Below are positions 5,527-32,831 of a stretch of 64,000 bases of DNA, one piece after another; the stretch's first letter is position 1; every line of letters begins with the position of its first letter. The DNA comes from Zootoca vivipara. Its lineage: Eukaryota. The position numbers were made by a program, and so were the translations under genes. The stretch lies in assembly GCF_963506605.1 (NCBI RefSeq), contig NC_083282.1, positions 9,424,001 through 9,488,000 on the forward strand. Direction: 5' to 3'. The notes under the pieces were generated by a model. That model made no database searches, had not been told where the DNA came from, and saw only the letters and a program-made list of their open reading frames with translations.

Positions 5527-5734
5527 TGAGGTGCCTCCAAAATCTGCTCCCCTGACTCCTGACCCCGATCTCCCTTGGCCTACCTGAAATGTCCACAAAG
5601 AGCAGCACGCCATCGAAGCTCTCGATGAAAGGCACTTCCTGGGAGAAATCGCCATACACTATGAGGTCGGGGACATGAGCAGCTACTTTGCCGAGGTTTG
5701 AGATCTCAATCTGCTTCTTGTCGTCACTGGTCAT
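57..5734 (-). CDS. ADCY10: Soluble adenylyl cyclase type 10 (ADCY10 or ADCY10-like), 5' part, continues beyond the left edge. Coding exons 5734-5584, 5039-4935, 3441-3403, 2117-1974, 262-57
   Basis: Spliced translation MTSDDKKQ...DGVLLFVDIS/GFTALTEKFS...YVGDIVE/EVLVFGGDVLKFA/GDALLALWKVE...LRVKI/GLSAGHISKVVVGD...AVDEVRLAQ...ERAVK matches the sAC C1 domain. All junctions are GT-AG; exon sizes 151/105/39/144/206 keep frame and resemble the mammalian exon structure as recalled. Confidence 0.93.
1299..1326 (+). repeat. Short interstitial telomeric repeat, about (TTAGGG)4
   Basis: agggttagggttagggttagggttaggg. Confidence 0.85.
1330..1828 (+). mobile_element. RTE-clade LINE 3' fragment (degraded)
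   Basis: QLRWTGHVVRMP..RLPKQLLY-like C-terminal remnant and (GAA)n tail; a homologous copy lies at 61866-62540 on the opposite strand. Confidence 0.75.
2140..2970 (-). mobile_element. L2-type LINE 3' end with (TAA)n tracts, interrupted by a solo LTR
   Basis: Shares sequence with the L2 3' ends at 6195-6480, 18898-19325 and 29600-30085. Confidence 0.75.
2390..2818 (-). mobile_element. Solo LTR (Gypsy/ERV-type), 429 bp
   Basis: TGT...ACA termini, 5-bp target duplication GGAGC/GGAGG, AATAAA on the - strand at about 2454-2459. The L2 sequence resumes exactly on both sides. Confidence 0.75.
2975..3315 (+). mobile_element. L1-like LINE 3' fragment
   Basis: [24 protein letters not shown] remnant, homologous to 6851-7129 and 9896-10126; A-rich tail. 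Confidence 0.65.
4316..4659. mobile_element. hAT-like MITE with TIR CATAGCTGCCAAGT
   Basis: TIRs CATAGCTGCCAAGT / ACTTGGCAGGTATG, perfect 8-bp TSD GCTTGGGC, internal inverted and tandem units. Confidence 0.85.
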
Positions 5735-6189
5735 TCTTGCTGAGCATTTATGGAGACTCTGTCTCAGAGCTGGCGAAGAGAGGCATTAGGACTTCTTCCC
5801 TGGCGCCTTGGGACCGGGAGGGGTGGCTCCTTCCCACACCTGCGTCGTCAGCAGCATCTCTTGGGTCAGCCGCATGTCACAATGAAGTGACAGCGGGCTC
5901 TTCTCCAATAGCAGTTACTTAAAGGTGTTTCCTTCCTAACAACGGTTGCTAGGCTAAACGTACTCATTTTGCCAAGGAACCTACTGGGCCAAGGGCCACT
6001 GCATGCCCCCACCCAGCTCAGGGGTCGGCAAATCTTTTTAGCCGCTGGCCAGTCCACTGTCCCTCAGACCCTGTGGCGGGACGGAGAAGCAGCACTCGGG
6101 GGGGGGGGAGCTGGAAGAAGAGACGAGGGGGGCAAGTAGTCCTCCTCTCCAACCCCCAACCCCCAGCCGCAACCGCTCCACTATAATAA

Positions 6190-8419: not shown

Positions 8420-8716
8420 TGGTATATGTATACATGCCGTATTTGGTATGACGTTGTAAGTGGGACAGGGGGAGGGGAGGGGGTTAAATATGCTCTTTGT
8501 TCCTGTTTTTGAAAATGCAATTTAAAAAAAAAACAAGAATATATGACCTAGGCAGTAACTCCTTGATACATCATAACTCCAGATTTGTGGGCCAAACTGG
8601 TGATGTCATAAAGACAACTGGTACCAACTGGGATGACAGGGGAGCTGCTCCAGCAGCAGGAAGCACTTCTCCTTTAGTGCTGAAGGGAAACCCTTCTTCC
8701 GTTTAAGGTGCATAGG

Positions 8717-10762
8717 ATGGGCCGTCTTCTTCTGCCATCTTTCGGTGCTTCCACACCCTTGTGGATAGCCGTTCTCATTGTAATAAAATGGACAGGAAAG
8801 GGCCTTAGCTGTCCAGCAACGTGCAGCTGTGTAGAAAACTCAGTGGACTGCAGCAGGAAGTCTTTAGACAAAGTTCCGGTCTCAATTCCGCTGACCACCA
8901 GGGAGTTGATTCTGTCCGACAACAAACTCGTCACGTTGCCAATATTAGAGATGAGCTATCTGAACGAACTGGTCTATCTGGACTGCAGCCACAACCTGTT
9001 AGAAATGGGCCTGGATTTCACCTTCCCTGGTATAGTCAAGTTGACATACCTAGACCTCAGTTTCAATAGAATCTCTTTTGTAACCCCTCACACTTTCTCG
9101 CAACTCAACAGACTGGTGCTGCTGAATCTCTCAAACAACCCGTTGTTGGTGGAAGTGAAGGACAGATCCTTTGACAGCAACCCCCTTCTGAGATTCGTGG
9201 ATATGAGCGACTGTGGCTTGACGTACATTGGCGGCGAATTATTCAGAGATCTGCGCAACCTTCATACTTTGAAACTGAAGGGGAACCCCTGGAATTGCGA
9301 CTGCAGTTTCTTGGAGTTTTGCAACTGGTTGAAGAAAACTGATGTTGTGTATCCAGGTGAGACCTTTCCCCAGGTGTGAATTCTGTGGGGCGCCTTCTCC
9401 TCTTTGCAGGCACTCAGGGCCGGCCCACCGAGGACGAGGCACCCCGAGAAGCGATACCAAGGAGGAAGAGGAAGCTAAGCATGGGAAAATGGGAGACAAA
9501 GGATGAGCAAGTAAAATACTCAATGATACATTGGACAATAGATATTGGTCATAATATAGACATGGAAGCATGGGAACGATTGTGGGATATAAAATTACAG
9601 CATGTTATGGTCTAAGAGAAAATGATATGAAAATAATATATTGATGGTATCTAACACCGAGTAAATTGGCCAAAATGTATAAGTCTAAATCAAATAAGTG
9701 TTGGAAATGTAAAGAGAAAGAAAGTTCTTTTCATCATATTTGGTGATTTTGTAGTAAGGTTAAAGCTTACTGGGAAATGATATATAATGAATTGAAAAGG
9801 ATGTTTAAAATAACGTTTGTAAAAAAAAAACAACCCAGAAACTTTTCTTTTGGGAATTATAGGGACAGAACTACCTAAACTATAGAAATTTATTAATGTA
9901 TGCTACTACAGCAGCAAGAATGTTTTTCTCCCCAAAATGGAATGAAGCAGAAGTCCCAACAAAGGAAGAATGGATACAAAAACTTATGGAATATGCAGAA
10001 ATGGCAAAACTTACCGGAAGAATAAGAAATCAAGATAACAAACTTTTTATAAAAGAATGGAAATGGTTTATTGAATATTTACAGATAAATTGTAAAAAGA
10101 CAGGAATATTGGCAGGATTATTGTAATAACCTGCCACTTCATAAGAGTATATATTTAAAGTAGATGAATAAATGAGCAAATTAAGTTATTTTGGTTATTC
10201 AGAAAATATTAAAAATAAATTTAGGGAACCACATTATACATTTCACTGATTTTACAATCTTTTTGACATTTTAAAACCTGACTTCTTTCCCCCTCTTTCT
10301 GCAGTTACATACATTTTTGTATCCTTCTTCCTTTGCTGGGACTTTTTATTTCCATTTTTGGGCAAGTAACATTCTTGCCGCAAATATTCGTTTTTTGCTT
10401 GTCCTTGGTCTGTTAAGGTGTAGTCCTATTATACATTTACCAGCCACAATTTAAAATACTGACTGTAACTCCTCTTAAATTTGTTTGTTTTTCCCCCTCC
10501 TTCAGACGCTGAGGAAATGATTTGCAACAAACCAGAACTTCTCAAGGGTCTGACAATCAATGTGGCCGAAACGAAGCTCCACTACCACTGCCTTGTGCAT
10601 TTAGACTTCCAAGATTTTGCCTTCTTGGGTCTGCTTGCCATCTTCATCTTTTTTGGAGGAACTCTGGTGGCCTGGCTGGTTGGTGTATTCGCAGTGATAT
10701 ATTACCACCCCGTAACGAAGGTGGACGAGGAATTGGAGGAGGAGGAATACAGCCCGATTTAG
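8717..10762 (+). CDS. LRRC52: LRRC52-like paralog A (BK/Slo3 channel gamma-2 subunit). Exons 8717-9356 and 10506-10762, 298 aa
   Basis: Signal peptide, LRRNT (CPATCSC...VDC), LRRs ([18 protein letters not shown]), LRRCT (GNPWNCDC...C), TM segment ([29 protein letters not shown]) and acidic tail. Phase-1 GT-AG intron. Lies upstream of MGST3, as LRRC52 does in mammals. Confidence 0.9.
9470..10235 (+). mobile_element. L1-like LINE 3' fragment in the LRRC52-A intron
   Basis: WYLTP..KCWKC..H.WW zinc-knuckle remnant followed by ORF 9896-10126. Confidence 0.75.
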
Positions 10763-11941
10763 ACCTGCTGTTTTGGAGCTCTGAGAAGTGTCAATGGCTA
10801 ATGCCTTGTAGCCCTTCTGTTTCACTGCAAAATCCATTTGCGGGCGTTTCCCCACCTTCCGAGGAAGGTCTCACTTTCCCCCACCTGTGTGTGCCCGAGT
10901 ATAACCTTGCGGTATAGAACGGGGCCTGACTCTGCCAGGTGTCAGCGCCAGGGCAAAGGACATGGGAGATTGGATGCTTCCAAGGTGCAAGTCTCGGCCC
11001 ACGAAGCATCAAAGGAGTCAAGTGGGAAGGAGGTTCCTGGAGGGCGAGTGTGATAGGCAACACTTGGTGGCCCACATGCTCAGTAAGAGCTGAGGACATT
11101 TCTGAAAGGGCCCCTAAGCAAAGGATAACTGAGGCCATTGGTTTAGAGGAGTGGGGTCAGATATTGAATTTGTCTCCGGGAACCTGTGTGCGCTTCACGC
11201 ATGACCTTCAAACATACTTGCACGAAGGGAATCTTTTATGTGGGTCAACTGCCCACCATGCTGGGGGGGGGAAATGTCCAAAAGAGCTCCAAAACCAGAA
11301 AATCATACCCACAACAAGAGCATGAATTTAAATGGCTTTCCTTACAGGGGAGGGAGAGGGGAGAATCCTGTTAATCAATGGGGTGAAGAATTGAAACCAA
11401 ATCATGAGTGCCTTTCCCCTAATACCTGCTACATTCACAGTCCTAAACTAAACCAATAAATTCCTGAAATAGAGAGAGTACTCAAACTAACCATAGTGGT
11501 GGAAAATGGGCGGGATCCTGTCCATTCAGCAAGAAAACTCCCCAAAATGGAGAAAGATTGAAAGTTGCCTATTCGGTGCTTCGAAGAGCTCTTGCAGATG
11601 TAAACAGGTCACAAACTCATGTGCTTGTGTGTTTTATTATTTTTATTTTATTTTGACAAAGTCATAATCAGAATAAAAATGTGCTCCCCACCACCGAGAC
11701 CATTCCATTGTACACTAGTGGCCAAAATTGTGGAAACCTTTTGGGGGAAGTGTATTTCCGAGGTTTGATGGCTCACAACACCACTTTTGGGGGGAGTAAT
11801 ACCATAAAATTATATATCAATGGAAAGATAATTTAATGAAGAATGTAATGGACTCTAAAAGATTGGGGGGGGGGTTAGACGTCTGAATTAAGCTCCCGCA
11901 CACAAGGCCTGCCTGCCTTCTCAGTCTTGGACTCTCTAAAG

Positions 11942-12808
11942 TTTACTATCGCCCAGTCTCAAATCTTCCATTCTTGGGCAAGGTGATTGAGCGAGTGGTT
12001 GCTGAACAACTCCAGGCACGCCTGGAAGAAGCAGACCATTTGGATCCCTTCCAGTCAGGGTTCAGGCCTCATCATGGGACTGAAACTGCCTTGGTTGCAC
12101 TGGTTGATGATCTCCGGCGGGCTAGAGACAAAGGTGAGAGCTGTTTCCTAGTCCTGCTGGATCTCTCAGCGGCTTTTGACACCATCGACCATAACATCCT
12201 TCTGGACCGTCTAGAGGGTTTGGGAGCTGGGGGCACTGTTATACAGTGGTTCCGCTCCTTCCTCCTGGGCCGTGTTCAGAAAGTGGTGGTGGGGGGTGAG
12301 TTTTCAGACCCCTGGGCTCTCACTTGTGGGGTGCCTCAGGGTTCTGTCCTCTCCCCCATGCTTTTTAACATCTACATGCAGCCGCTGGGAGAGATCATCA
12401 AGGGGTTTGGGCTGGGTGTTCATCAGTATGCGGATGATACCCAGCTCTACCTCTCTTTCAAATCAGAACCAGTGAAGGCAGTGAAGGTCCTGTGTGAGTG
12501 CCTGGAGGCGGTTGGAGGATGGATGGCGGCTAACAGATTGAGGTTGAATCCTGACAAGACAGAAGTACTGTTCGTGGGGGACAGGAGGCGGGCAGGTGTG
12601 GAGGATTCCCTGGTTCTGAACGGGGTAGCTGTGCCCCTGAAAGACCAGGTGTGCAGCCTGGGAGTCATTTTGGACTCACAGCTGTCCATGGAGGCGCAGG
12701 TCAATTCTGTGTCCAGGGCAGCTGTCTATCAGCTCCATCTGTATGCAGGCTGAGACCCTACCTGCCTGCAGAGGGAGACCCAGCCAGATGGGCAGGGTAT
12801 AAATAATA

Positions 12809-12855
<47 letters not shown>
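11942..12855 (+). mobile_element. L2-clade LINE reverse-transcriptase fragment with (TTA)n tail
   Basis: ORF 11974-12753: QSGFRPHHGTETAL, LLDLSAAFDTIDH, GVPQGSVLSP, YADD. Confidence 0.9.
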
Positions 12856-12856
<1 letters not shown>

Positions 12857-13153
12857 TTGGAGATTGCCAGGCACCCTAGTCTGCCTCAGGTACAGAAGAC
12901 GTACACTCTCTCTTGTGTATACATACACACAAAGCATGCCCAAAACCTGTGTAGGGATGACCCTTGGGTGACATAAAGGTGTCAACTGGCAGTCAACGCG
13001 ATACAGAACAGCAAGTGGCCGTTTTGCACATTCAAGAAAGTGAGCTCCCTGCCCCAGGTGCTTCAATTGGCAGTTTGCCCGAGATGTTGACAAGCAAAGA
13101 GTTTGCAGAAAGCAGAGCACCTTAGCTCCCCACAGGATCGGTGCAGAGAAGAA

Positions 13154-16100
13154 ATGGCTCCCGGCCCAGAATGGAGTGGAGAACATGGGGGTGCGAAGGG
13201 AGCCGGGAACTGCTTGCGGTGGGTGGTGCTTCTCCTAGGAATTGGCAGGACGGCAGAAGGTGTGTCGTGTCCCCAGGGGTGCACTTGCAAGTATCTGGTT
13301 GTGAACTGCACAGGGAAGCAGCTTGCAGAGTTCCCGGAGAGCATCCCTCTGGACACCAGGCAGCTGGTCCTGGCTCAAAACCAGCTCAGCTACTTGCCGT
13401 CTGTGGAGCTGAACTTCCTCAGCGACTTGATCTATCTCGATTGCAGTGGCAATGCTTTGGGCCAGGACCTGGACTTCACCTTTGTGAGCATCATCAAGCT
13501 TGTCTACTTGGACCTCAGTTTCAACAACCTCACGCTGGTCACGTTTGGGACCTTTTCCCAGCTCGGCAGCCTGGTTGTGCTCAAGCTCTCCGACAACCCC
13601 AGTCTGGTGGAGATTGAGAAGGACTCCTTTGCCAACAACACCTGGCTGAGGCACCTGGATGTGAGCCGCTGTAGCTTGACGTTCATCGATGCAATTACCA
13701 TCAGGGACCTGCCCAACCTGAGAAGCCTGGGCTTAAGCGGGAATCCCTGGTTCTGCAACTGCTCCTTCATGGAACTGTGCAGCTTGATAAAAGAGAGTGG
13801 CATAACTATCCCAGGTGAGTGGGAAATGCTGAGCATCTAGGGGAGGGTGTCCCATCTCCAGGTGAGCTGTAGGGTGAGCACTCAGCTGCTGGGCTGAGAG
13901 GGTGGGCAGTCTGTAGACTCAGGACAACTATGTCCCTCTGGCATTTGGTCAAGTGCCTTTAAAAATAAGTCCTAAACTATTGCACCAGGAAGGTACTTTC
14001 TTGCCGAAGTTAATGGGAGAATAATAAGAAGCTCTTTGAAAATGTCAAGCAAAGGCACACAAAGATTTCGTCTTGCCTCCTTCTCCCCTCATCGGCCATC
14101 AAGGCGACAGAAAGCTGTTTATCCTGAATTTCTTGTGATTTCCAAGTCAAAATATTGTGTCCAAGATTCTCCATTATTCTGAGTGGAGTGTTTCTTGCTT
14201 TATTATCTGCAATTTTGCTGATGCCATTCTTTTCCGCTGTTGTTGCATGATAATAAGGCTTGCCGTATTATCATGGTAGTTTTTTGGGGGGAAACCCATG
14301 CAATTCACAAAGTTTCGATCCTTCCCTCGCACTTTTACCAAAGCAGGGGCCCTTTCCCATTAATTCCCTTTCTGAATCGTTCCCTCCCTTCCCATATTCC
14401 AAGCAGAGATAAAGCTATGCTCCCAGAAGAATATTTCTATTCCTGAGTCGTAACTCTCAGAGAAGGGGAAGGGGAAAGGAGAAGGAAGCTGCTTATGTGT
14501 CAGTTTCCCAGTTATGTCACACAACTCACCTTATAGCCTTGCCACTGCTGTTTCAAAGAGCAAGCAACACTGTTTGTGTGTGAAATAGACACGTCCTTTT
14601 GCATTCCTCTGCGCCTTGTTTGAGAGCAGCGGTTAAATTTTAATGCTGGCTGCAAGCTTATCTGGCAACGAGAGCTCCTCTTTCCTTCTGGAAATGAAAT
14701 AAGACACACCCTGCTCCATGCCAGCCGGTGGCACAAAATGGCACATCATGATAACTTTGTGGGTACACTTGACCGCTGTCTTCTACAATATGAGAGCGAG
14801 CTCAGGGCAGGCAACCTTCTCCCTCGCAGTCTTTGAGAGCTGCACTAGGCGAATGGTGGAAATCCAATAAAGCTAGGTGGTTCTGGTGCCAGAGTTGGGT
14901 GGTCCAACAGGGCATGAGTACTGCCAATGGCATCACCACCGTTTGGGCAAGCTGGGACACGGCTGGCGCTGTGGTCTAAACCACTGAGCCTCTTTGACTT
15001 GCCAATCAGAAGGTTGGCGGTTCGAATCCCCACAATGGGGTAAGCTCCCAGAAAGCTGTCTGTGGACAAACGCTGGCTCCCTCGGCCCGAAAGCGAGATG
15101 AGCACCGCAACCCCATAGTCACCTTTGACTGGACTTAACCGCCCAGGGATCCTTTACCAGGCCCAAAGCCAGGTGAATGTGACCCATCTGCAGGCCTGGC
15201 CCAAGGCATTTTGGCACCTTAGGCAAACCACAAAATGGCGGGCTCGTCGCTGCAAGGGGAGAAGGAGTGAATGAAGATCCACATCGGGAGCGAAGGGAGG
15301 GAATCAAATCAACCTCCCCCGATGGTTGAAGTAGGAATCAAAGGCCGTCACAGAGGGGAGAGAAGCTCGCTCTGAATCACACTGGGCAGGTGCCGAGTCC
15401 AGGAGACCTCAATAGGAAAAGGCTCCCAATCCAAACAGCCCCAAAAGGGGGAAACTGTGAGCATACTTAGAATGTGCTCCCCATTGTTCTTTTTGAATTT
15501 GGGGTCACAGCTTTAAGTGTCCTGCAGCTAATGTCATATGTCAAGTGACTGACAGGTGGGTGGGGTTTGGGCAAAACCAATGGGGAGGTGTGGTGGGCCT
15601 AATTCCACACCCATGCCAGAACCCGTCAAGTGCTGCTTTAGCCCATGGGCTCTTTCATCCACCGATATCCGTTGGCATGGTGGTCCTCCTTTATCAAGTG
15701 TGCAGCTTCAAGAGTGGCACACATGGACTAGAATGTGGTCTAAACCTCCCTTTAAAGCCATGTCAGCGAAAAGAAAAGAACTCACTCTGAAACTCACTTA
15801 CAGATGGTACCTAACACCACGGAAAGTAGCCCAGATACGCCCAGGAACCTCACCAAAATGTTGGAGAGGATGCACCTCCACAGGCACTTACCTCCACATG
15901 TGGTGGGAATGTCCCCAAATCCAACACTTCTGGACATCAATCATACAAGAAATATGCAAAATAGCTGAGCAAGTCACCCCAGAACTGGCCCTACTAAACA
16001 TCTTCCAAGATAATAATGCCCTCTCACATCACAAAGAGCTCATAACCCACCTCCTCAGTAGCCAGAACCATCATAGCCAGACACTGGGGAGACCTGTCAG

Positions 16101-18298
16101 GAGTAGGCATGGAGCAATGGTATCCAATAGTATGGGAAACAGCCTTATTAGAAAAACCAACCAATAAACTGGCACTGACACAGGGACAAATAGAAGCAGG
16201 CACCTTCACCCCGGTATGGTTCCCCTTTATCACGTACACAGCCCAACAAGACAACGACAAGAATCCGCCAACAGCATACAAATCAATCTGGCTAACCTAA
16301 TCCAACACACACACACACACACACCACTCACACACAAAAACAAACCTCACTACAGCCAACCAAAGACAACCAACCACACCCTAGGCCACCCCCAACCTCT
16401 CTCATCACCAAGGAAATACAACAAGCGAATAGTAAGAGAACCCACACAAGTGACGCTGACACAGAACCCCACACATACACTAAGTAGAAGAATGGAAGCA
16501 TTGCCACCCCACCCCACTCACCATTCCCCTCCCCCTATTTTCTTCCTAACCTATCACTGTATGCAATGCTAGGAGAGGTTGCAAAACAGCGCCCTCTAGC
16601 GGCGGCTACACTGGTACTGCATCTAGGAAAGCTCCCCTCTCCACAGCATCTCAGCTCAGCTTTCCAGACTGGGCCAAGTGGAGGTGGGGGCTCGCCTGGA
16701 TAGGAGATGGGGAGAGGAGGGGGCGGGATAGGTCATGGGTTGGTACTGGTTATGCCCAGCCACAGGGATAAGCCGGGGTGGAGGGAGGAGGGGATGGGAT
16801 ACCTAATGGGTCGGGACAGGGTAGGGGGAGTCACAGGGATGAGCCTGTATAAACAGAACACATGTAAAACATTTCAACAAAATGAAGGGGGACTCTGAAG
16901 ATGAGGGGTCTGAAGGGGGACTCTGAGGGTCCATTTAACAGACTGAGCCACAGCAACACGTGGCCGGGCCAGCTAGTCTTTAATAAAAATGTATTAAAAG
17001 AAAAACGAGTGTCACACATGGAGTGATGAGGGAGAAAGGAGACACCCATCAAGCCAGTCAGATCAGCCACATCAGCCCTGCTGACCAATTGAGTGACAGA
17101 TGTCATAGCCAGATCACCCTTGGATTCCACCCACTAACATGGGTTAATAATAGCTTTTCATTCAGTATTCACCAAGACAATTATTTCGGAAGGATTACCA
17201 ACACCCCAACCCCCCCAAAAAACCCAACCTCAGTTGCAGAAATATTTTCCCCAAAAGTGATGGAGAATTCTGTCTCCCCCTCCAAGAATATTTGGCCCCT
17301 GGGAATGGGTCCAGTAATCAGTCTATTGGGCAGTAAGCACTCTAGCCTGCCATTTTAGATGCTTAGTAGAAAGACAACAAACAAAAATGCTGATTCATTT
17401 TTGTTTCCTGAAATGTATGGTATATACCACTTGCTTACCTTCCAAGTCCCGGACTGCAGAATCCGGGACCGGCAGCCGTGTGACACCGGAAGTTGTGTCG
17501 ACGTAACTTCCGGTGTCGTTTTGCCCTTCTATGGGCACCAAAAATGGCCGCCGCCGGCTTCGAAAGTCGCTTCTACGCATGTCAGGAACTGCATCGACGC
17601 AACTTCCGGTGTCGCTCTGCCCATCTATGGGCACAAAAAATGGCCGCCGCCAACACCGGAAGTCGCGTCTATGCACTTCCGGACATGCGTAGATGCGACT
17701 TTTGAAGCCGGCGGCGGCCATTTTTGTTGCCCATAGAAGGGCAAATCAGAAAGAAAAAAATGGCCGCCGGCAGGAGAAAATAACGGAGAAAAACGGGAGA
17801 CAAAGTGATACGGGGGACCACTGGGAAAAGGTAAGTAAAAATGGGGGGTTTCCTGGGGAAAACGGGGTACTTGGCAGCTATGCACTTGCCTGGAACAAAC
17901 ATGACGCAAGTTAGGTCTGAGTTTAAAGGGAAGGGTGTCTTCCTGGGTCTGGAGAGGACCAAGGCCACAGGCCTGCAGACAGGTCCTTAATTGACATGTT
18001 GTTTTATGCACAAGTCGAGACTTGTCACCCTTGTGTTTCTTCTGCAGACTCTGACAACGTCACCTGTTACAGCCCAGCTTTTGTGCATGACTTGAAGATG
18101 CTGGAAGAGGCACAGGAGCAACTTAATTATAAATGCTTCATCCATTTTGATGACCAAGACTATCTTTTCCTGGGGCTGGTTGGGTTCTGCATCTTCTCTG
18201 CCGGTACAGTGTTTGCTTGGCTCTTGGGAGTTTGCGCGGCTGTGTATGAATTCTTAACTGGGACAGGAGATGAAGACGAAGAGGACAGGGGCGAATGA
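13154..18298 (+). CDS. LRRC52: LRRC52-like paralog B. Exons 13154-13814 and 18048-18298, 303 aa
   Basis: CPQGCTC..VNCTGKQLAEFPESIPLDTRQL, LSDLIYLDC, LSGNPWFCNCSF and TM DYLFLGLVGFCIFSAGTVFAWLLGVCAAVY closely resemble recalled mammalian LRRC52 (DYIFLLLIGFCIFAAGTVAAWLTGVCAVLY). Phase-1 intron at the same position as in paralog A. Confidence 0.92.
14955..15160 (+). mobile_element. Sauria SINE (Squam1), internally deleted
   Basis: gggacacggctggcgctgtggtctaaaccactgagc head with a B-box-like ggttcgaatcc. Confidence 0.7.
15700..16560 (+). mobile_element. L1/Tx1-like LINE 3' fragment
   Basis: YRWYLTP...KCWRGC...GTYLHMWWECP CCHC motif with frameshifts. Confidence 0.8.
16588..16621 (-). promoter_or_regulatory. 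Predicted CTCF site with upstream module
   Basis: - strand reads TGCAGTACC-agtgta-GCCGCCGCTAGAGGGCGCT, matching the core plus upstream motif. Confidence 0.6.
17434..17882. mobile_element. hAT-like MITE of the CATAGCTGCCAAGT family in the LRRC52-B intron
   Basis: TIRs cttaccttccaagt / acttggcagctatg, flanking CACTTG duplication, internal palindromic repeats. Confidence 0.75.
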
Positions 18299-18897
18299 GC
18301 CTAGTAGACTCTGAAAATGGGCTTGGTGATATATTGAGAGCGTCATCCTACGTATCTTTACTTGGAAGTAAGCCCCACTGATCACAGTGGGACTAAGACT
18401 GCAGTCCACCACACATGTCTTAGGAAGCAATTCTTTTTTTAAAACAGTGGGGCATATTTCGGAGTAAACAAGCGTAAAATGCCGGAAAATGAAGACATCC
18501 TCAGAATCATATTTGAAACTCTATGACAGCAAATGCCAGCAAATTACCTTACTGGAATAGTTTGGCTTTGGAGAGTGATATTATTCTGTTAAGATGTTGC
18601 TACTATGCCTGGCGCTAGATTGGAGCGCAGCTTTCCTCATATTTGGTAATGGCTCAGAATGGCTCTTTACTTGCAATAGAAATATTATTAGCGAGATGCA
18701 ATGCGATAGCAACCCTTTCAGATGCTTACTGAAAACATGAGATGTGAAGTGCACAAAATAAGTTTCTAGCACGAACACTGCTAACTGCCAAGGAAAGACG
18801 CACAGACACACACCCCACCCCCAATTAATTGAGTGTAACTATATCTCAGGTTGAAACAATTTTTCACCGGCTCTCCTTCTCAGCCTGAGATGGCTGA

Positions 18898-19243
18898 CCT
18901 TTAAAGCCCTAAACGTCCTCGGCTCAGTATACTGTACCTGAAGGAGTGTCTCCACCCCCATCGTTCAGCCCAGACACTGAAGTCCAGGTCAGAGGGCCTC
19001 CTGGCAGTTCCCTCACTGCAAGAAGTGAGGTTACAGGGAACCAGGCAGAGGGCCTTCTCGGTAGTGGCACCCGCCCTGTGGAATGCCCTCCCGTCTGATG
19101 TCGAGGAAATATCTGACTTTTAGAAGACATCTGAAGGCATCTGTTTAGGGAAGTTTTTAATGTTTGATGTTTCATTGTGTTTTTGATATTCTGTTGGGAG
19201 CCTCCCAGAGTGGCTGGGGAGGCCCGGGCAGATGGGCGGGGTG

Positions 19244-25366: not shown

Positions 25367-28300
25367 ATGGTGGTTCTCTCGAAGGAATACGGCTATGTGA
25401 TTCTCACCGGTGCGGCCAGTTTCATCTTGGTAACACACCTTGCCATCAATGTGGGGAAAGCCCGCAAGAAATACAATGTTCAGGTGAGGGGGGGGGCATT
25501 GCTGCATCAAGTCTCTGGGAAGACAAGAGTACAGACGCAACATATCCAATATAATCTGATCATTCTGCTTATTTCCTGCGGGGTCTGTTCTACCTTTTTT
25601 CAAAGAACCATGTTTTTTTAGACCTCATGGCCAGTGGCGTGGGATTTTTTCCCTTTGCTGACTGGAAAGTGGGTGGGTTCTCTCTCCCCCTTCCTTTGGT
25701 GCGCTCTTGAGTAAGCCATGCGCAAATGGCAACACTGCAGGCAGCTAATGCTACTTTCTGCCAGGTGACATGCTGCCTCAGTGGAACCTCCATAGTCAAA
25801 GGCAGTGTACCTCGATGAGTGCCAGTTGCTGAGAGGGCTCTTCCCTTCATGCCCTGCTTGCAAATGCCCAAGTAGCACATGGGTGGCCGTTGATGGAAAC
25901 GGCCTAGATAGACCTTGAATCTGTTCCAGTTCTGGTGTTTGCACGCATTATGTAGGCAGGCCTTGAAGGTGGCTCAGGGCATCCTTGACAGTAGATTTGA
26001 TATTCATATCATAGCTTCCAACTCTCTCTTGGTTTTTTTTAATCTGTGAGGACTTGGGTGAGGAATTTGTGAGTTGGCTTTTGCCAAACGCCCACAGCTG
26101 GCAGCGCTGCACCAATGTTTCTAATCTGAAAGCTGCCGCAGGGGGAACGAGCTGCGTGGCCGCTCTTGCCGGCTTCTGTGGTTCTCAGCTGCTAGCATCG
26201 CTTGGAGAGAGGGTGAGCCGTTTTCCAGGGGTCTCCGAAACAGAGGAGCCTTCTAAGAAACCCTCCGCTCCAAATCGTGCACAGAAAAATACTTCCTCTC
26301 CTCTTCCTGGAAGGCTTTGCTGCCACAGTTGGGAAGGAGGCCAGAGGGTGTGTCTGCTCGCTAGTGAGTCATAAGCCTCTCTAAAAAACAACTGGAGCCG
26401 GGCTTTGTGCATGGTTTCTCGTGGCTCAGGAATGGGTGGGGGACTTCAGCCATAAGACTGGCAAGCCGTGTCCCTACCACTCCTCTTCTTTGGCACTCTC
26501 GCTTCTGTGTTAGTTCATTCCTGCAAAGAGCCTTTGAAATGCACTTTGCACGCAAACATAAAGGGAGAAGAAGCAACTTGGGAGGGGAGGGTTGCTGCTG
26601 TTGTGTTTGGGCTCTTATCCCCCTTGTGGCGAGTGACCTGGCTCGTTTCACCTGCTATTGTTGACTTTTGCTTTGAGACGCCATGGCTTCTTCCAGGTCT
26701 GGCCGGAGACCAGGCTGGAAAAAAGGAGAGTTTCTTCCTCTCCTGCCATGGTGGGAAGGCTTGCAGGCAGAAGGCAAGGGAAAGATGGCAGGAAACAGCA
26801 GGAAAGTCTCGCACAAAAGGAGCACGCTCAGACACATGATATGTCTGTGAATGTGCGTTTCCGGCAAAGTGCAAAACAGAAGCCCAATCAGTCAGTGGCT
26901 GCCATGGCTCCATTCTGTGTGCCCATTGGGTGTGGGAATAGAGTAACACATTGATCACTAGGTAGCATGTGGAACGCTTAAATGGCTCAGGACCGCAATA
27001 CTTCAAGGACCGCCTCTTTCCGTATGGACCTACCCAGACCCCGAGATCATCTTCTGAGGCCCTCCTTTGTGTGCCTCCTCCTCGAGAGGCCCGATGGGTG
27101 GCAACATGAAAACAGGGCCTTCTCTGCAGTGGCTCGCCGCCTGTGGAATGCTCTTCATTATACACCTTTAGGCGCCAGGCAGAAATGTTCCCTTTTAACC
27201 AGGCCTTTGGTTGATCTGATTGACATCCTATGCCCTTTTAAAATGTGGCTCTTTTGTAGGGGGGCTATTGGGTTGTTGTTTTTATTTTTATTATGTATTT
27301 TGTAGTTTTATATTTTGATTTTATCTGTGAACTGCCCTGAGACCCCCGGGTATAGGGCGGTATATAAATTACAACAACAACGACAGCTTTCAACTCCATA
27401 GTTGATGAGGTGTGGACATTTACTTTCTCACTTTCTCTCTCCCCCTCCCCCCACTAACCTCCCTCAAAAGTACCCAAACATGTACAGCACAGACCCTGAA
27501 AATGGACATCTCTTCAACTGTATCCAGAGGGCACACCAAAACACGTGAGTATCCCTCGGCACGAGGAATTTAATTTTGCTTTCTTAGATGTTTTAGATGT
27601 CTTAGATGTGGTGCAGATGCTGCTGCTTTGAGAAACCATTCTCAGTGCAGCAATCCCTTCCGTGCTGCCTGTAGCAGGCGTGATACCTGAGGAAATCCAT
27701 ATTCTAAATGCCTGTCCCAGTTGTGGAATCATAGAATCTTAGAGTTGGAAGGGACCCCAAGGGTCATCTAGTCCAGCCCCCTGTGATGCAGGAATCTCAG
27801 CAAAAGCAGCCTTGAGAGATGGCCCTCCAACCTCTGCTTAAAAACCTCCAAGGAAGGAGAGTCCACCGCCTTCCGAGGGAGTCAAAAGGCTCTTGCCGTC
27901 GGAAAGTTCTTCCTGGTGTTTAGCTGGAATCTCCTTCCTTGTAACATGAAGCCATGGGTTCGAGTCCTACCCTCCAGAGCAGGAGAAAACAAGCCTGTTC
28001 CCTCTTCCGTGTGTCAGCCCTTGCAATAGTCTTTTGACTGTTGAGTGTGTTGCTACGGCCAGTGACTTGTCAGCGAAAGGCTTGTCGGAGGCTAGGGTTG
28101 CCAGACTCACTAGAGGACAGGACTTCTGTGCCTTTAATTGCCCTGCTCTCTTTTGAGTCTGGAAACCTTAAAGAGAAACCAGCAGACCCAACCAGCCCCA
28201 GACTCAAAAGAGAGCAGGGCAATTAAAGGCACAGGAGTCCTGTCCTCTATTGAGTCTGGCAACCCTATCGGAGGCAGATAGTCCCTGGGTGGTTCAGGAG

Positions 28301-31300
28301 TCTGCATTGCTGGAGCTCAGAGCTCATGCAACAGCCAGGAAAGGTGGGTTACGGAATCCTGAGGAAATTTCCAGCTTGTGGAAGTGAAATTTTGCTGACC
28401 TTTCCTGTTGAGAGAGAGCATGCGATTCCTACATCAATATATGTTGGGAGTCCCTGTCTTTGGACCTTTGCACCTCAACTGTGTGCCTGCCTCGGCCTTC
28501 CTTTCCTCCCCTTTATACCAATCCTGTATACTCTGCTCTGAACCTCCTCTTAATTCATGTGTGCACACCCCAGAGGTTGGAACGGGGAAGATGCAGTAAG
28601 GAATACCCCGTGCAGAAGAGCAGTCTTTGTCTCCTTGGCTCCCTGACAGAGCTGCAGAGGCCCGACTTTTCCGTAGCAGGAAGGAATCGTTGCAAGCGTG
28701 CAAATTATTCAGGGGCAGCTGTGAAATCTGCTGCCTTCTTCCTTGCAGCCTCTTGTTGAGAATGATGGCCTGGTCTCTGAGCCAGCTGGCACGAAGGAGG
28801 GAGCTCATTCCAGGCCATTTAAAAACAGAATCAAAGCCACAACACACACAACTGTCTCTGTTCTTGCAGGTTAGAAGTGTATTCCTCCTTCTTATTCTTT
28901 CTTGGAGTGAGCGGCATCTACTTCCCGGTAAGTACCGAGATGAGAGACTTTGGGGTTTGTTTTTCCGCGGCCTGCTCAGTGTGAGTAAAGCCTGGGTGTG
29001 ACTGCGAAGCCCAAGGTAGTTGATTCCCTGCTGTAGTTTCTCTGGGGCAGAGCTCAGGAACATCCATACTGGTCAAATCTGGACAACAATAACATCAACA
29101 AATTCTTTCCAGTAGCACCTTAGGTAAAGGTAAAGGGCCCCCTGACTATCAGGTCCAGTCGTGTCTGACGCTGGGGTTGCGGCGTTCATCTCGCTCTATA
29201 GGCCGAGGGAGCCGGCGTTTGTCCACAGACAGCTTCCGGGTCATGTGGCCAGCATGACAAAGCTGCTTCTGGCGAACCAGAGCAGCGCACGGAAACGCTG
29301 TTTACCTTCCCGCCGGAGCGGTCCCTATTTATCTACTTGCACTTTGAGGTGCTTTCGAACTGCTAGGTGGGCAGGAGCTGGGACCGAGCAACTCGAGCTC
29401 ACCCCGTTGCAGGGATTCGAACCGCCGACCTTCTGATCAGCAAACCCTAGACTCTGTGGTTTAACCCACAGCGCCACCTGGGTCCCTAGAGACCAACTAA
29501 CTTTGTCATTGGTATGAGCTTTCGTGTACATGCACACTTCTTCAGATACCAATATATACTATTAATACCAACAGAGTATTAATAGTAATAATAAAAAAGT
29601 GATAAACATCAAACATGGAAAAACTTCCCTAATCAGGGCTGCCTTCAGATGTCTTCTAAAAGTCAGGTAGTTGCTTATTTCCTTGACATCTGATGGGAGG
29701 GCGTTCCACAGGGTGGGGGCCACCACCCACCAGGAAGGCCTTCTGCCTGGTTCCCTGTAACTTTGCTTCTCGCAGTGAGGGAACCGCCAGAAGGCCCTCA
29801 GAGCTGGACCTCAGTGTCTGGGCAGAACGATGGGGGTGGAGACACTCCTTCAGGTATCCTGGGCCGAGGCCGTTTAGGGCTTTAAAGGTCAGCACCAACA
29901 CTTTGAATTGTGCTCGGAAACACACTAGGTCTTTCAAGACCAGTGCTATGTGGTCTCGGCGGCTGCTCCCAGTCACCAGTCTAGCTGCCGCATTCTGGAT
30001 TAGTTGTAGTTTCCGGGTCACCTTCAAAGGTAGCCCCACGTAGAGCGCATTGCAGTAGTCCAAGCACCAAGTCGTATAGAGCATGATGTTGTTAGCTCCT
30101 CTCAGTACAGCCTGCCAAGCGCTTCCCCACTGATCAGAAATTATCAGTATTCTTATGCTGCCACACAGCTTAGGACAGGCATCCCCAAACTTCGGCCCTC
30201 CAGATATTTTGGACTACAATTCCCATCATGCCTGACCACTGGTCCTGTTAGCTAAGGATCATGGGAGTTGTAGGCCAAAACATCTGGAGGGCCGCAGTTT
30301 GGGGATGCCTGGCTTAGGAGCAGTGTTTTTTTGCATGGTAGGGGAGAGCCTTTAACCTCTTTCCTACCCTCATTGCAGCCATTTTAATAGAGAAAGTGAG
30401 ACAGACAGACAAGGAAGGTCAGCTCAACTTTAGATCTACAAAAACCTCAAGCTGGTGTGCTTTCCCACCCACCCCTTTTCAAATTTGGGAGCAAGCGAGA
30501 GAGAGCTGCTCCTTGCACTTTTAAATTAGTCCTCAATATATCCTTCACCCAAGTTGTCAGTGGCTTTGAACCTAGCCCAGTAGCAGAAGGGCAGCCAGGG
30601 CTTTAATGTTGGTGTTATATGCTGTTGACCCCTGGCCCCCACCCATATTCTAGTTGCCATATTCTGCACTAGGTGGAGTTTCCAGGCAAGGCCCGAGGGC
30701 AGCCCCCTCCCCCCCCCAAACAGCAATCTAGCTTTGAGATTACCAGCTCATGGACTACAGGAGTCAAGCTCTCCTTATCCATAAATTGATACGGCTGGTG
30801 TACCAGGTGAAGTTCGGAAAAGGCACTCCTATCCACAGAGGCTGCTTGACCCTCTAATGACAGTGACGTGTCAAGGAGGACCCCAAAACTCCTTTACAGG
30901 AGGGTGTAAATCAAGTCCAGACAGGCAGTTGACCAATTTCCTGGACACGGCAACCACCGCTCAACAGGGTCTCTGCCTTCTCAGGACTGAAACGCTGCTT
31001 ATTGGTCCCCGTTCTGCACTCCACTGTGTCCAGGCAGCAGCTCCTAATTCAAACGTTACCATAGACTTGTTGGAAGGGGCACAAGGGTCATCTAGTCCAA
31101 CCCCCTGCAATGCAGGAATCTCAACTAAAAGCATCCATGACAGATGGCCATCCAACCTCTGCTTAAATACCTCCAAGGAAGGAGAATCCACAGCCATCTG
31201 AGGGGAGTCTGTCGGAACAGCTGTCAGTGTCATCATACTGATGAGCACTCACTCCAAAACTTCTATCGACTGCCCCCTTTTGTTCCATATAGATGTTAAA

Positions 31301-32831
31301 ACAAAACTGGAGACAAAATAGAAGCTGCACATTCTAATCAGCACAGTCCCCCCCCCCCAATGAGAAGTGACTATTTCTGCTTTTTTCCCCAGCGGGTTGC
31401 TACAGGACTAGGTGCATCTTGGATCATCGGAAGACTGCTTTATGCTTACGGCTACTACACAGGAGGTGGGTTTATGGGGCTGGTAAACGCAATCCGTTCA
31501 TCACCTGCAGAGTTTTCCTTGGACCCCAACTGGATCTGTTGCCAAACTCTTCCATGCACTGTGCAAGAGCTTGGAAACGGGAGCAAACAGTTGGGAATCA
31601 AGAGGAATGGTCTGCCTTATGCTTCCCGCCCCCCCTCCCATAAGAGTAGGAAGCTATGTTTAGAATGAAAATAGTGGGATTTCATCCCATTATGCAATGC
31701 CTTAACTCCATCCTCCTTTGCAAGAAAAAGAGATACATTCTCTGGAGCACATACTGAAGTGTTGACTCAAGAGTATAAGAAGCACACTGATAATTTCATT
31801 GCCCCCCCCCCCCAAACAGCTTTGGGGGGTGGTAGATTTACAATCAAGCAGAATATAAATTTTGGGAAACAAATAAAATAAATATTTCACATATGGAGCG
31901 CTAGAGGATGTACACAGGGGGTCCCAAGGTTGCACACACACACACCCCTCCAAACACACCCCAAAATCTCAAAACTACTGGACTTCTCCCCGCTTAGAAT
32001 CAGCTGGTTTTTGTTATCAAATTTATTTATTTGTAAAATGCTTATAGACCACCATCTCATGCATAACATCAAGGCAGTGTGCAACAATATTTTACAAATA
32101 CATTGTTGCTGTTGTCATCAGTCTTGAGAGACAATGGAGTGCACCTTCCAGGGTGAAGTCAAACGGCTGGAGAATCGCAGCGCCTGCTGTGGCTGCAGAG
32201 GCTGGTAACTCTTAACTGCTGCCTCCTGCATTATTTTTCCTGCATTAGGAGCACCACAGTGACCCCTCTGGGGTGCAAGCCTGGGCAGTGTGCATGGAGG
32301 TCCTCTCTGGAAGGTGTGAGAAGGAGCAGTCTAGGAAAGCAGAAATAGTAGTTCATGAATGTGTTTCCTGCTGACATTTGGCCACCAAAGCCTCTAACTT
32401 TTTGTACTGAAGCCTGTGTCTTGCCTTTGATAGCATATCTTGAAGGGGGCGGTAAAAAAAATGAAAACCTGATGTTTTAGAGGTACCCTTTGTGGGCAAA
32501 ACAACCACTGAGTTTATCCTGGGTAGATTGCAGAATAGCGTGCACGGCTGCACTGCGAGCCAACTGCCCTTTCTGCGTCCTGCACGCTTTGAAAGTTTTG
32601 GCGCTCTGGCTGGGTAGCTGAAAAGAAAGGCTTCTCGCAACAAGCGAAGCTGGAATATCAGCTGCTTGCCTTGCTTCTCGTACCAAGAGTGAGTCATGTG
32701 AACCTCACCTTTTCCTTACAGATCCCAAGAAACGAAACCGAGGAGTCCTCGGCTCTTTGGCACTTCTCGGATTGGCAGGGACCACCGTTTACTCTGCTTT
32801 GGTGCATCTTGGCTGGGTGTGCGGTAACTAG
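25367..32831 (+). CDS. MGST3: Microsomal glutathione S-transferase 3. Coding exons 25367-25483, 27471-27544, 28870-28927, 31393-31465, 32722-32831; 143 aa
   Basis: [15 protein letters not shown]...[84 protein letters not shown]...[13 protein letters not shown] motif [10 protein letters not shown] present; all introns GT-AG and in frame. Confidence 0.97.
26975..27370 (+). mobile_element. L2-like LINE 3' fragment
   Basis: RAFSAVA..LWNAL remnant; inverted homolog at 33070-33370. Confidence 0.65.
27727..28025 (-). mobile_element. CR1 LINE 3' fragment
   Basis: aatcatagaatc..agagttggaagggacc...ggtcatctagtcc CR1 terminus; related copy at 31060-31215. Confidence 0.75.
28093..28267. mobile_element. 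Palindromic hAT (Tip100-like) MITE
   Basis: TIR TAGGGTTGCCAGACTCA, perfect 8-bp TSD TCGGAGGC, arms about 80 bp. Confidence 0.9.
29124..29487 (-). mobile_element. Full-length Sauria SINE (Squam1) nested in a Penelope-type fragment
   Basis: (ACCTTT)n tail and GGGACCCAGGTGGCGCTGTGG head on the - strand. Confidence 0.85.
29508..29553 (-). ncRNA. Minimal hammerhead ribozyme motif, antisense in MGST3 intron
   Basis: AUUGGUAU-CUGAAGA-A-GUGUG(CAUG)UACAC-GAAA-GC-UC-AUACCAAU, with an 8-bp stem I. Confidence 0.75.
29600..30085 (-). mobile_element. L2 LINE 3' fragment
   Basis: ORF 29656-30084: [27 protein letters not shown]. Confidence 0.85.
30176..30311. mobile_element. hAT-Charlie-like hairpin MITE
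   Basis: TIR CAGGCATCCCCAAAC, 8-bp TSD GCTTAGGA. Confidence 0.9.

What the first reader, a model, noticed from the sequence alone, without database searches (positions are those of the whole stretch)
8717..18298. Two intact, diverged tandem LRRC52 (BK/Slo3 gamma-2) paralogs
Seen: two complete two-exon genes (298 and 303 aa) with the same phase-1 intron position, intact signal peptide, LRRNT/LRRCT cysteines and TM helix, but many substitutions, so this is an old duplication rather than an assembly artefact. Established: mammals have one LRRC52 next to MGST3; it is the auxiliary subunit of the sperm Slo3 (KCNU1) channel and shifts BK gating, with the TM and juxtamembrane region being key. Inference: a squamate or sauropsid expansion of gamma subunits with partitioned roles. 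B keeps the mammal-like TM (GFCIFSAGTVFAWLLGVCA); A has diverged ([19 protein letters not shown]) and could act on a different channel or tissue.
Basis: partly seen in the sequence, partly recalled or inferred. Interest (0 to 1): 0.7.

Follow-up and report, generated by a model that had tools for sequence, protein, structure and literature searches.

The report
Lizard-and-snake duplicate of sperm channel subunit
Lizards and snakes carry two intact copies of LRRC52, a helper subunit that mammals use for both the sperm potassium channel and the inner-ear BK channel; one copy stayed conservative, while the other evolved fast, gained a new tail and is likely the sperm-side partner.

Summary
Two intact two-exon genes (A 298 aa, B 303 aa, 46% identical) lie in tandem, and both are already in RefSeq as 'LRRC52-like' (Zootoca vivipara). 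The duplication is not local to this species: A and B form separate clades from geckos to snakes, and no A-type protein turned up in birds, turtles, crocodiles or mammals. Evolution is asymmetric: across 14 species A averages 58% identity, B 86%. A gained a conserved tail (aromatic-His-Pro, acidic run, terminal YxxΦ). Both copies keep the Phe that human gamma-2 needs to shift BK gating. One RNA-type assembly from a related lizard holds spliced A and spliced Slo3 but no B; a same-species RNA run shows none of the three. Best reading: A is the testis/Slo3 copy and B keeps the ancestral, probably somatic, BK role (about 0.5). Limits: one sample of unknown tissue, B was never seen expressed, no gating data, and a duplication older than squamates is not rejected. 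No paper on the pair was found in the library searched. A real, unstudied paralogue of a known family; moderate interest.

The parts
8717..9356 (+). LRRC52-A coding exon 1 (signal peptide, LRRNT, six LRRs, first half of LRRCT)
   Evidence: spliced in run X1
9357..10505 (+). LRRC52-A intron, GT..AG, phase 1, 1149 nt
   Evidence: a joint skipping 1149 nt with GT..AG ends in X1
10506..10762 (+). LRRC52-A coding exon 2 (rest of LRRCT, TM helix with Phe262 = human Phe256, tail, stop)
10700..10759 (+). A-specific cytoplasmic tail, residues 279-298: aromatic-His-Pro, acidic run, C-terminal YxxΦ
   Evidence: His-Pro motif in 23 of 23 A and 0 of 20 B; terminal YxxΦ in 18 of 23 A, 0 of 2 Hemicordylus A-type and 0 of 148 non-A LRRC52
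13154..13814 (+). LRRC52-B coding exon 1
13815..18047 (+). LRRC52-B intron, GT..AG, phase 1, 4233 nt, rich in repeat fragments
18048..18298 (+). LRRC52-B coding exon 2 (LRRCT end, TM helix with Phe270 = human Phe256, short acidic tail)
5582..5737 (-). First coding exon of an ADCY10 (soluble adenylyl cyclase)-like gene, head-to-head with A; start codons 2,980 nt apart. Context only.
   Evidence: human ADCY10, E 1e-12; single match in the genome; rest of the gene not checked
25367..31470 (+). Context only.
   Evidence: MAPEG E 7e-5, 23.3 bits, just under the 23.4 cut-off; the exon at 25367-25483 gave no hit

Best explanation
This is a tandem duplication of LRRC52 (BK/Slo3 gamma-2), shared across lizards and snakes, in which copy B stayed slow and ancestral-like while copy A evolved fast, gained a new tail and likely became the testis copy that partners the sperm channel Slo3, leaving B a likely somatic BK role. 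SHOWN: two intact genes; separate A and B clades across squamates; asymmetric rates; a new conserved tail in A; the essential TM Phe kept in both; Slo3 and Slo1 genes present in the genome; spliced A and spliced Slo3 in one RNA-type assembly that lacks B. INFERRED: that this sample contains testis; that A binds Slo3 through its TM helix and shifts activation to negative voltages as mammalian gamma-2 does; that the acidic-YxxΦ tail is a sorting signal controlling surface level or location; that B acts on BK in hair cells or other somatic cells. The last step has no direct support here.
For: (1) Tree of 38 proteins: A 100/100, B 99/96, A+B 91/80, geckos in both clades. (2) In 14 species with both copies A is less conserved than B in 91 of 91 species pairs (mature region 58% vs 86%). 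Relative-rate tests against turtle, alligator and kiwi give 62-80 A-unique vs 13-25 B-unique changes, p<=1.3e-5 in 9 of 9 tests. Slo3 itself is described as rapidly evolving (PMC10342799, abstract and passages), and the mammalian LRRC52 stem is also long (0.71 vs 0.04-0.17 for bird, turtle, crocodile and B stems). (3) Run X1 holds a 959-nt spliced A contig (depth 51) and nothing on either B exon; the same run holds a 3202-nt spliced contig on the Slo3 exons (depth 19). That locus is KCNU1: best PDB hit human Slo3 4hpf, E 4e-21 vs 2e-13 for human Slo1. Slo3 is testis-predominant in anole and chicken (PMC5337896, parts 1-2 of 4 read). Same-species run X14 has no read on A or B coding exons and no listed Slo3 joint. 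(4) Phe256, whose mutation abolishes gamma-2 action on BK (PMC4810070, table and passages), is kept in 23 of 23 A and 20 of 20 B, and the two TM glycines in 23 of 23 A. (5) Mammalian LRRC52 has two known jobs that could be split: Slo3 in testis and BK in inner hair cells (PMC11758846, abstract and opening).
Against: The expression evidence is one run of unknown tissue whose RNA status is guessed by the tool; it may be pooled tissue, and contigs show presence, not absence, so B may simply have been missed. B was seen expressed in 0 of 4 runs laid. No positive-control gene was in the stretch, and only about 6% of each raw run was read. A's TM is less mammal-like than B's (45% vs 70%), and lacertid A lacks the Phe253 equivalent. 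Rate tests against a mammalian outgroup were significant in only 1 of 3. The supplements of a chicken auditory and vestibular hair-cell study do not mention LRRC52 (0 of 9 files, PMC12616014), which gives no support for a hair-cell role of the B-like bird gene. The terminal YxxΦ is lost in 5 of 23 A proteins and in both Hemicordylus copies. No gating or binding data exist for any reptile gamma subunit in what I read.
Confidence: 0.5

Rival explanations
1. A is testis-expressed but no longer mainly a gating modulator: it was neofunctionalised as a trafficking or surface protein (new sorting tail, fast-changing LRR surface), while B, at low level, still does both ancestral channel jobs.
For: Long A stem (0.68-0.83 changes per column); new tail; TM identity to mammals only 45%. 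A rough bound suggests weak constraint in lacertids: at most 62 nucleotide differences to X1 against 42-48 amino-acid differences to Podarcis and Lacerta over 290 codons, which implies pN/pS of about 0.6-1 or more if X1 is about equally distant.
Against: Phe256 equivalent and both TM glycines invariant in 23 of 23 A; all eight cap cysteines kept in Zootoca A; B absent from the one run that holds Slo3 and A.
Confidence: 0.2
2. One reading: B, with the mammal-like TM, is the Slo3/BK partner in sperm, and A serves another channel or tissue.
For: B TM 70% vs A 45% identical to mammals; B keeps the three N-glycan sequons shared by all 7 mammalian rows (B positions 125, 161, 224), which most A proteins lack.
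Against: A, not B, co-occurs with spliced Slo3. B's slow rate resembles birds and turtles rather than a sperm-restricted gene.
Confidence: 0.15
3. Both copies work in the male germ line and split the job by stage, dosage or sperm region, with no somatic/testis split.
For: Mammalian LRRC52 is abundant in testis; the genes are adjacent and could share enhancers; B was seen in no run, so its tissue is open.
Against: No B contig in X1, where A reached depth 51 and Slo3 depth 19; strongly unequal rates.
Confidence: 0.12
4. On history (compatible with any mechanism): the duplication predates the mammal-reptile split; mammals kept the A-like copy, birds, turtles and crocodiles the B-like copy, and squamates both.
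For: The AU test does not reject A+mammals / B+archelosaurs (log-likelihood 3.5 lower, p 0.33). Three consensus sites unite A with mammals, among them a derived N-glycan sequon present in 23 of 23 A and 6 of 7 mammals but in 0 of 20 B, 0 of 12 archelosaurs and 0 of 4 amphibian and fish rows.
Against: The best tree joins A+B (91/80); four consensus sites favour A+B. The scenario needs two extra losses, and A and mammals are the two long stems, so attraction or convergence would give the same signal.
Confidence: 0.12
5. Assembly artefact or decaying pseudogene.
For: None beyond A's fast rate.
Against: 46% protein identity and no intron similarity; orthologues of both in at least 14 species; spliced A contig with no coding indel.
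Confidence: 0.01

Closest known systems
Mammalian LRRC52 (BK/Slo3 gamma-2)
   Same: Same family clade; signal-LRRNT-six LRR-LRRCT-TM-short tail layout; eight cap cysteines; Phe256 equivalent; MAPEG-family neighbour.
   Different: Two copies, not one. Neither has the longer mammalian tail; B, like birds and turtles, lacks the juxtamembrane basic cluster, which is dispensable in human gamma-2 (PMC4442785 passages). A has a new His-Pro/acidic/YxxΦ tail and a different glycan pattern.
Single LRRC52 of birds, turtles and crocodiles
   Same: B is 65-72% identical in exon 1, with the same TM core, acidic tail and sequons.
   Different: No A-type counterpart found; A is only 42-50% identical to them in exon 1.
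Other gamma subunits LRRC26, LRRC55, LRRC38
   Same: Same architecture; 33-38% identity in exon 1 for the two nearest own-genome paralogues; LRRC26 is the only gamma subunit hit in the PDB search (E 1.6e-16).
   Different: They are separate loci in this genome (L003, L004, L009) and fall outside the LRRC52 clade. The names for L003 (LRRC38) and L004 (LRRC55) are recalled; L009 best matches LRRC26 among proteins of like size.
C-terminal YxxΦ and acidic-cluster sorting signals (LAMP, furin type; recalled, no call)
   Same: A ends in an acidic run followed by Tyr-x-x-hydrophobic at the very C-terminus.
   Different: No Gly before the Tyr, and a longer spacing from the TM than in LAMPs (recalled); function untested.

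Membership tests
BK gamma subunits (LRRC26/52/55/38) | Six 24-residue LRR units capped by LRRNT and LRRCT (PMC4197896 passages) | tested here: met
   AlphaFold model of A (pLDDT 80.7) has six LRR strands at 63, 87, 111, 135, 160, 184; B aligns without gaps through this region; Pfam LRRNT and LRR hits for both.
BK gamma subunits (LRRC26/52/55/38) | Four conserved cysteines in each cap | tested here: met
   A 32/36/38/45 and 194/196/220/242; B 39/43/45/52 and 201/203/227/250.
BK gamma subunits (LRRC26/52/55/38) | Single TM helix and short cytoplasmic tail | tested here: met
   One long hydropathy peak in each; tails of about 20 (A) and 17 (B) residues.
BK gamma subunits (LRRC26/52/55/38) | Cleavable N-terminal signal peptide | tested here: inconclusive
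   Hydrophobic N-terminal stretch in both and a modelled helix in A; no signal-peptide predictor available.
BK gamma subunits (LRRC26/52/55/38) | N-glycosylation sequon(s) in the LRR domain | tested here: met
   One in Zootoca A (N137, kept in 23 of 23 A), five in B; actual glycosylation not testable.
BK gamma subunits (LRRC26/52/55/38) | Juxtamembrane positive cluster | tested here: not met
   B has none; A has His plus one Lys or Arg. This feature is essential in gamma-1 but dispensable in human gamma-2 (V1/2 73 vs 61 mV on deletion), and bird and turtle LRRC52 lack it too, so it does not define LRRC52.
BK gamma subunits (LRRC26/52/55/38) | Binds Slo1 or Slo3 and shifts voltage gating | not testable with these tools
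   Needs electrophysiology; no full-length lizard Slo protein was on hand for a complex prediction.
LRRC52 orthogroup | Groups with vertebrate LRRC52 to the exclusion of other gamma subunits | tested here: met
   Quick tree of 72 rows: all 69 LRRC52 rows, A and B included, on one branch (SH-aLRT 96) against L003, L004, L009; all named hits at E<=1e-30 are LRRC52, LRRC52-like or uninformative names.
LRRC52 orthogroup | TM Phe256 required for modulation | tested here: met
   Invariant in all 66 rows tallied: 23 A, 2 Hemicordylus, 20 B, 21 other vertebrates; mapping from PMC4810070 and PMC4442785.
LRRC52 orthogroup | Position next to MGST3 | tested here: inconclusive
   MAPEG-family exon downstream, just under Pfam's cut-off; the name MGST3 and the mammalian gene order are recalled.
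LRRC52 orthogroup | Testis expression together with Slo3 | tested here: inconclusive
   A with Slo3 in one run of unknown tissue; B in none of 4 runs.

The most novel reading that the evidence does not exclude
Lizards and snakes have a fifth, sperm-dedicated gamma subunit (LRRC52-A) that took over Slo3 from the ancestral gene and added an acidic-YxxΦ sorting tail that routes or recycles the sperm channel, a job not described for any gamma subunit in what I read; B is then a pure somatic BK subunit, so squamates separate the fertility and hearing roles that one gene carries in mammals.
Probability: 0.2. Interest if true: 0.68.

Novelty: new variant of a known kind. Interest (0 to 1): 0.45.

Why it matters
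If the split is real, squamates offer a natural pair of gamma-2 proteins, one tuned to Slo3 and one to BK, that share the essential TM Phe but differ at about half their residues. A/B chimeras would show which residues set Slo3 versus Slo1 preference, which matters for sperm-channel physiology and for selective Slo3 pharmacology. It would also give an accessory partner for reptile Slo3, whose role in sperm is described as untested (PMC5337896). Against that: lineage-specific duplicates with asymmetric rates are common, both genes are already annotated, and no function is shown.

Tried and rejected
A PDB search with B exon 2 found nothing relevant, and no LRRC52 entry appeared among the 60 rows listed for exon 1. 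Foldseek on the A model gave generic LRR ectodomains (NGL, Nogo receptor, Slit, VLR); LRRC26 was not among the 32 rows shown, so the fold adds nothing to family assignment. The profile search of 50% representatives was dominated by long multi-LRR proteins; its short hits were known LRRC52s plus a second Phrynosoma A-type. No protein named as tuatara or monotreme LRRC52 was seen in any listing. Real dN/dS could not be computed: no orthologous coding DNA was available. No complex prediction was sent. The Pfam cyclase scan gave no match on this contig, so the ADCY10-like gene's integrity is open. The nuclear-receptor scan gave a match 0.83 Mb upstream that I did not identify. Rows dropped: Menidia, Nothobranchius and Naja A from trees and counts (aberrant C-terminal gene models); the careful tree used 38 of 72 rows; the careful run on all 72 did not finish. 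Literature: 'LRRC52 + lizard' 0 papers; 'LRRC52 + duplication' 15 papers, none on a reptile duplication by title and abstract start; 'LRRC52, LRRC38, ortholog, phylogen' 1 paper, a fly/worm/mouse/human survey; in the any-2-of-6 reptile search none of the 40 listed held LRRC52. Two primary papers on LRRC52 in sperm and hair cells are not held; subscription papers and bioRxiv supplements were not visible and could mention the pair. Earlier scan notes: nothing found.


Full report
Observation. Splicing the window at GT..AG sites gives two intact genes on the + strand: A (8717-9356 + 10506-10762, 298 aa) and B (13154-13814 + 18048-18298, 303 aa). The intron is phase 1 at the same aligned codon in both. 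The proteins share 134 of 291 aligned residues, and only exon 1 aligns at the nucleotide level (66% over 383 nt), so this is neither an assembly echo nor a recent copy. Both products are identical to RefSeq proteins labelled 'LRRC52-like [Zootoca vivipara]'. Genome searches with exon 1 of B and exon 2 of A find these two copies and no third.

Family. Named homologues at E<=1e-30 are LRRC52, LRRC52-like or carry uninformative names. In a quick tree of 72 rows both copies fall inside the vertebrate LRRC52 branch, apart from three other gamma-like loci of this genome; the labels LRRC38 and LRRC55 for two of these are recalled, and the third best matches LRRC26 among like-sized PDB chains. The AlphaFold model of A shows six LRR strands and a long TM-containing helix, matching the family description in PMC4197896 (passages).

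Distribution and age. A-type proteins occur in geckos, a skink, a cordylid, a tegu, lacertids, a worm lizard, an anguid, iguanians and snakes. None from birds, turtles, crocodiles or mammals is among the 120 of 352 hits listed for an A profile. A careful tree of 38 rows gives A 100/100, B 99/96 and A+B 91/80, with geckos in both clades, so the duplication is at least as old as the gecko split. The alternative, A with mammals and B with birds, turtles and crocodiles, is 3.5 log units worse and not rejected (p-AU 0.33); consensus sites split 4 to 3 in favour of A+B. I prefer a stem-squamate or stem-lepidosaur origin because it needs no losses and because A and mammals are the two long stems. An unnamed assembly protein, P0026, branches below all named A proteins in the quick tree; its source is unknown. 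Consecutive accession numbers (Podarcis lilfordi, P. muralis, Crotalus adamanteus) and equal contig lengths (Rhineura, Elgaria, Tiliqua, Candoia, Vipera, Pituophis, Crotalus tigris) suggest that the tandem is widely kept, whereas in Sceloporus and Phrynocephalus A and B are on contigs of different length. This is inference from listings, not a synteny test.

Asymmetry. Over 14 species with both copies, A is less conserved than B in 91 of 91 pairs (mature region 58% vs 86%; TM 61% vs 87%, 87 of 91). Relative-rate tests are significant in 9 of 9 comparisons against reptile and bird outgroups, 3 of 3 against a frog, and 1 of 3 against a mammal. A rough bound points to weak overall constraint on A within lacertids: the X1 contig differs from Zootoca at no more than 62 letters, while Podarcis and Lacerta A differ at 42-48 of 290 residues, over 674 nonsynonymous and 196 synonymous sites. 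If X1 is about as distant, pN/pS is roughly 0.6-1 or higher. This is not a dN/dS estimate.

What changed and what did not. In human gamma-2, Phe256 is required for shifting BK gating and the basic cluster 277-279 is not (PMC4810070 table and passages; PMC4442785 passages). The Phe256 equivalent is invariant in all 66 rows tallied, including 23 of 23 A. A's TM is still less mammal-like than B's (45% vs 70%). The new feature of A is its tail: an aromatic-His-Pro motif in 23 of 23 A and 0 of 20 B, then an acidic run, then a terminal YxxΦ in 18 of 23 A, 0 of 2 Hemicordylus A-types and 0 of 148 non-A proteins. The two middle residues vary while Tyr and the hydrophobic end persist (YSPI, YRTF, YIGI, YTMI, YRMI), the pattern expected of a tyrosine sorting signal; that reading is recalled and untested. 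A also swapped glycan sites: it mostly lacks the three sequons common to B and mammals and has one shared only with mammals. Glycosylation is needed for gamma-2 expression in cells (PMC8892010 passages).

Expression. Of four runs laid on 8500-19000, X1 (contigs of a related lizard, about 93% identical, RNA status guessed) holds a 959-nt contig that skips A's intron exactly, at depth 51, and nothing on B's coding exons. Three same-species raw RNA runs, about 6% read, have no depth on either gene's coding exons. The genome has four Slo loci; the one on contig C15 is KCNU1 and the one on C5 is KCNMA1 by best PDB hit. X1 holds a 3202-nt contig spliced across four KCNU1 exons at depth 19; X14 has no listed joint there. 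Slo3 is testis-predominant in anole and chicken (PMC5337896, parts 1-2 of 4), so X1 likely includes testis. One sample, unknown tissue, and contigs cannot prove absence of B.

Mechanism. Most likely (0.5): after duplication A took the germ-line role. It would bind Slo3 through its TM helix and shift activation negative, as mammalian gamma-2 does (PMC10342799 passages), evolving fast like Slo3 and like the mammalian stem. B would keep the constrained somatic BK role, known in mammals from inner hair cells (PMC11758846 abstract and opening). The somatic role of B is inference only: B was seen in no run, and a chicken hair-cell study's nine supplementary files do not list LRRC52. The head-to-head ADCY10-like exon 3 kb upstream of A offers a possible shared testis regulatory region, since ADCY10 is a sperm enzyme (recalled); this is untested.

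Novelty. The genes are annotated, but no paper on the pair was found in four aimed searches, which cover open-access text only. It is a new variant of a known family: a clade-wide, fast-evolving paralogue with a new tail. It would interest BK/Slo3 and reptile-sperm specialists and makes the question of Slo3 versus Slo1 specificity testable, but it is not a new kind of system. Interest 0.45.

Noticed in passing
window 5582-5737 (-): First coding exon of an ADCY10-like soluble adenylyl cyclase, head-to-head with LRRC52-A, start codons 2,980 nt apart. The rest of the gene was not traced; the Pfam cyclase scan gave no match on this contig.
   Followed up: partly
window 8601-8608 and 5945-5951: A CRE-like octamer with one mismatch about 115 nt upstream of A's ATG, and an RFX half-site near the ADCY10-like 5' end; motif labels recalled, chance level not tested.
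   Followed up: no
P0018/P0023 (Pogona), P0237/P0238 (Hemicordylus), P0015/P0365 (Phrynosoma): Apparent further duplications of the A lineage; both Hemicordylus copies have lost the terminal YxxΦ. Iguanian A proteins are the longest branches, and in Sceloporus and Phrynocephalus A and B lie on contigs of different length.
   Followed up: partly
P0026 (unnamed assembly protein): Exon-1-only protein that branches below all named squamate A proteins in the quick tree; if it comes from an early-diverging lineage it would date the duplication.
   Followed up: partly
L009 (G000:C15:36403102-36403668): LRRC26-like gamma subunit exon about 1.55 Mb from KCNU1 on the same contig; whether it is the LRRC26 orthologue or an extra paralogue was not tested.
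   Followed up: partly
window 39703-40146 (+): TEDC1 family match (E 8e-15) downstream of the MAPEG gene.
   Followed up: no
tree: The mammalian LRRC52 stem is as long as the A stem, while bird, turtle, crocodile and B stems are short, and A and mammals share a derived N-glycan sequon: possible parallel acceleration.
   Followed up: partly
window 11887-12753 (+): Reverse-transcriptase-like open frame of a LINE fragment between genes A and B (label recalled), covered by repeat-derived reads.
   Followed up: no
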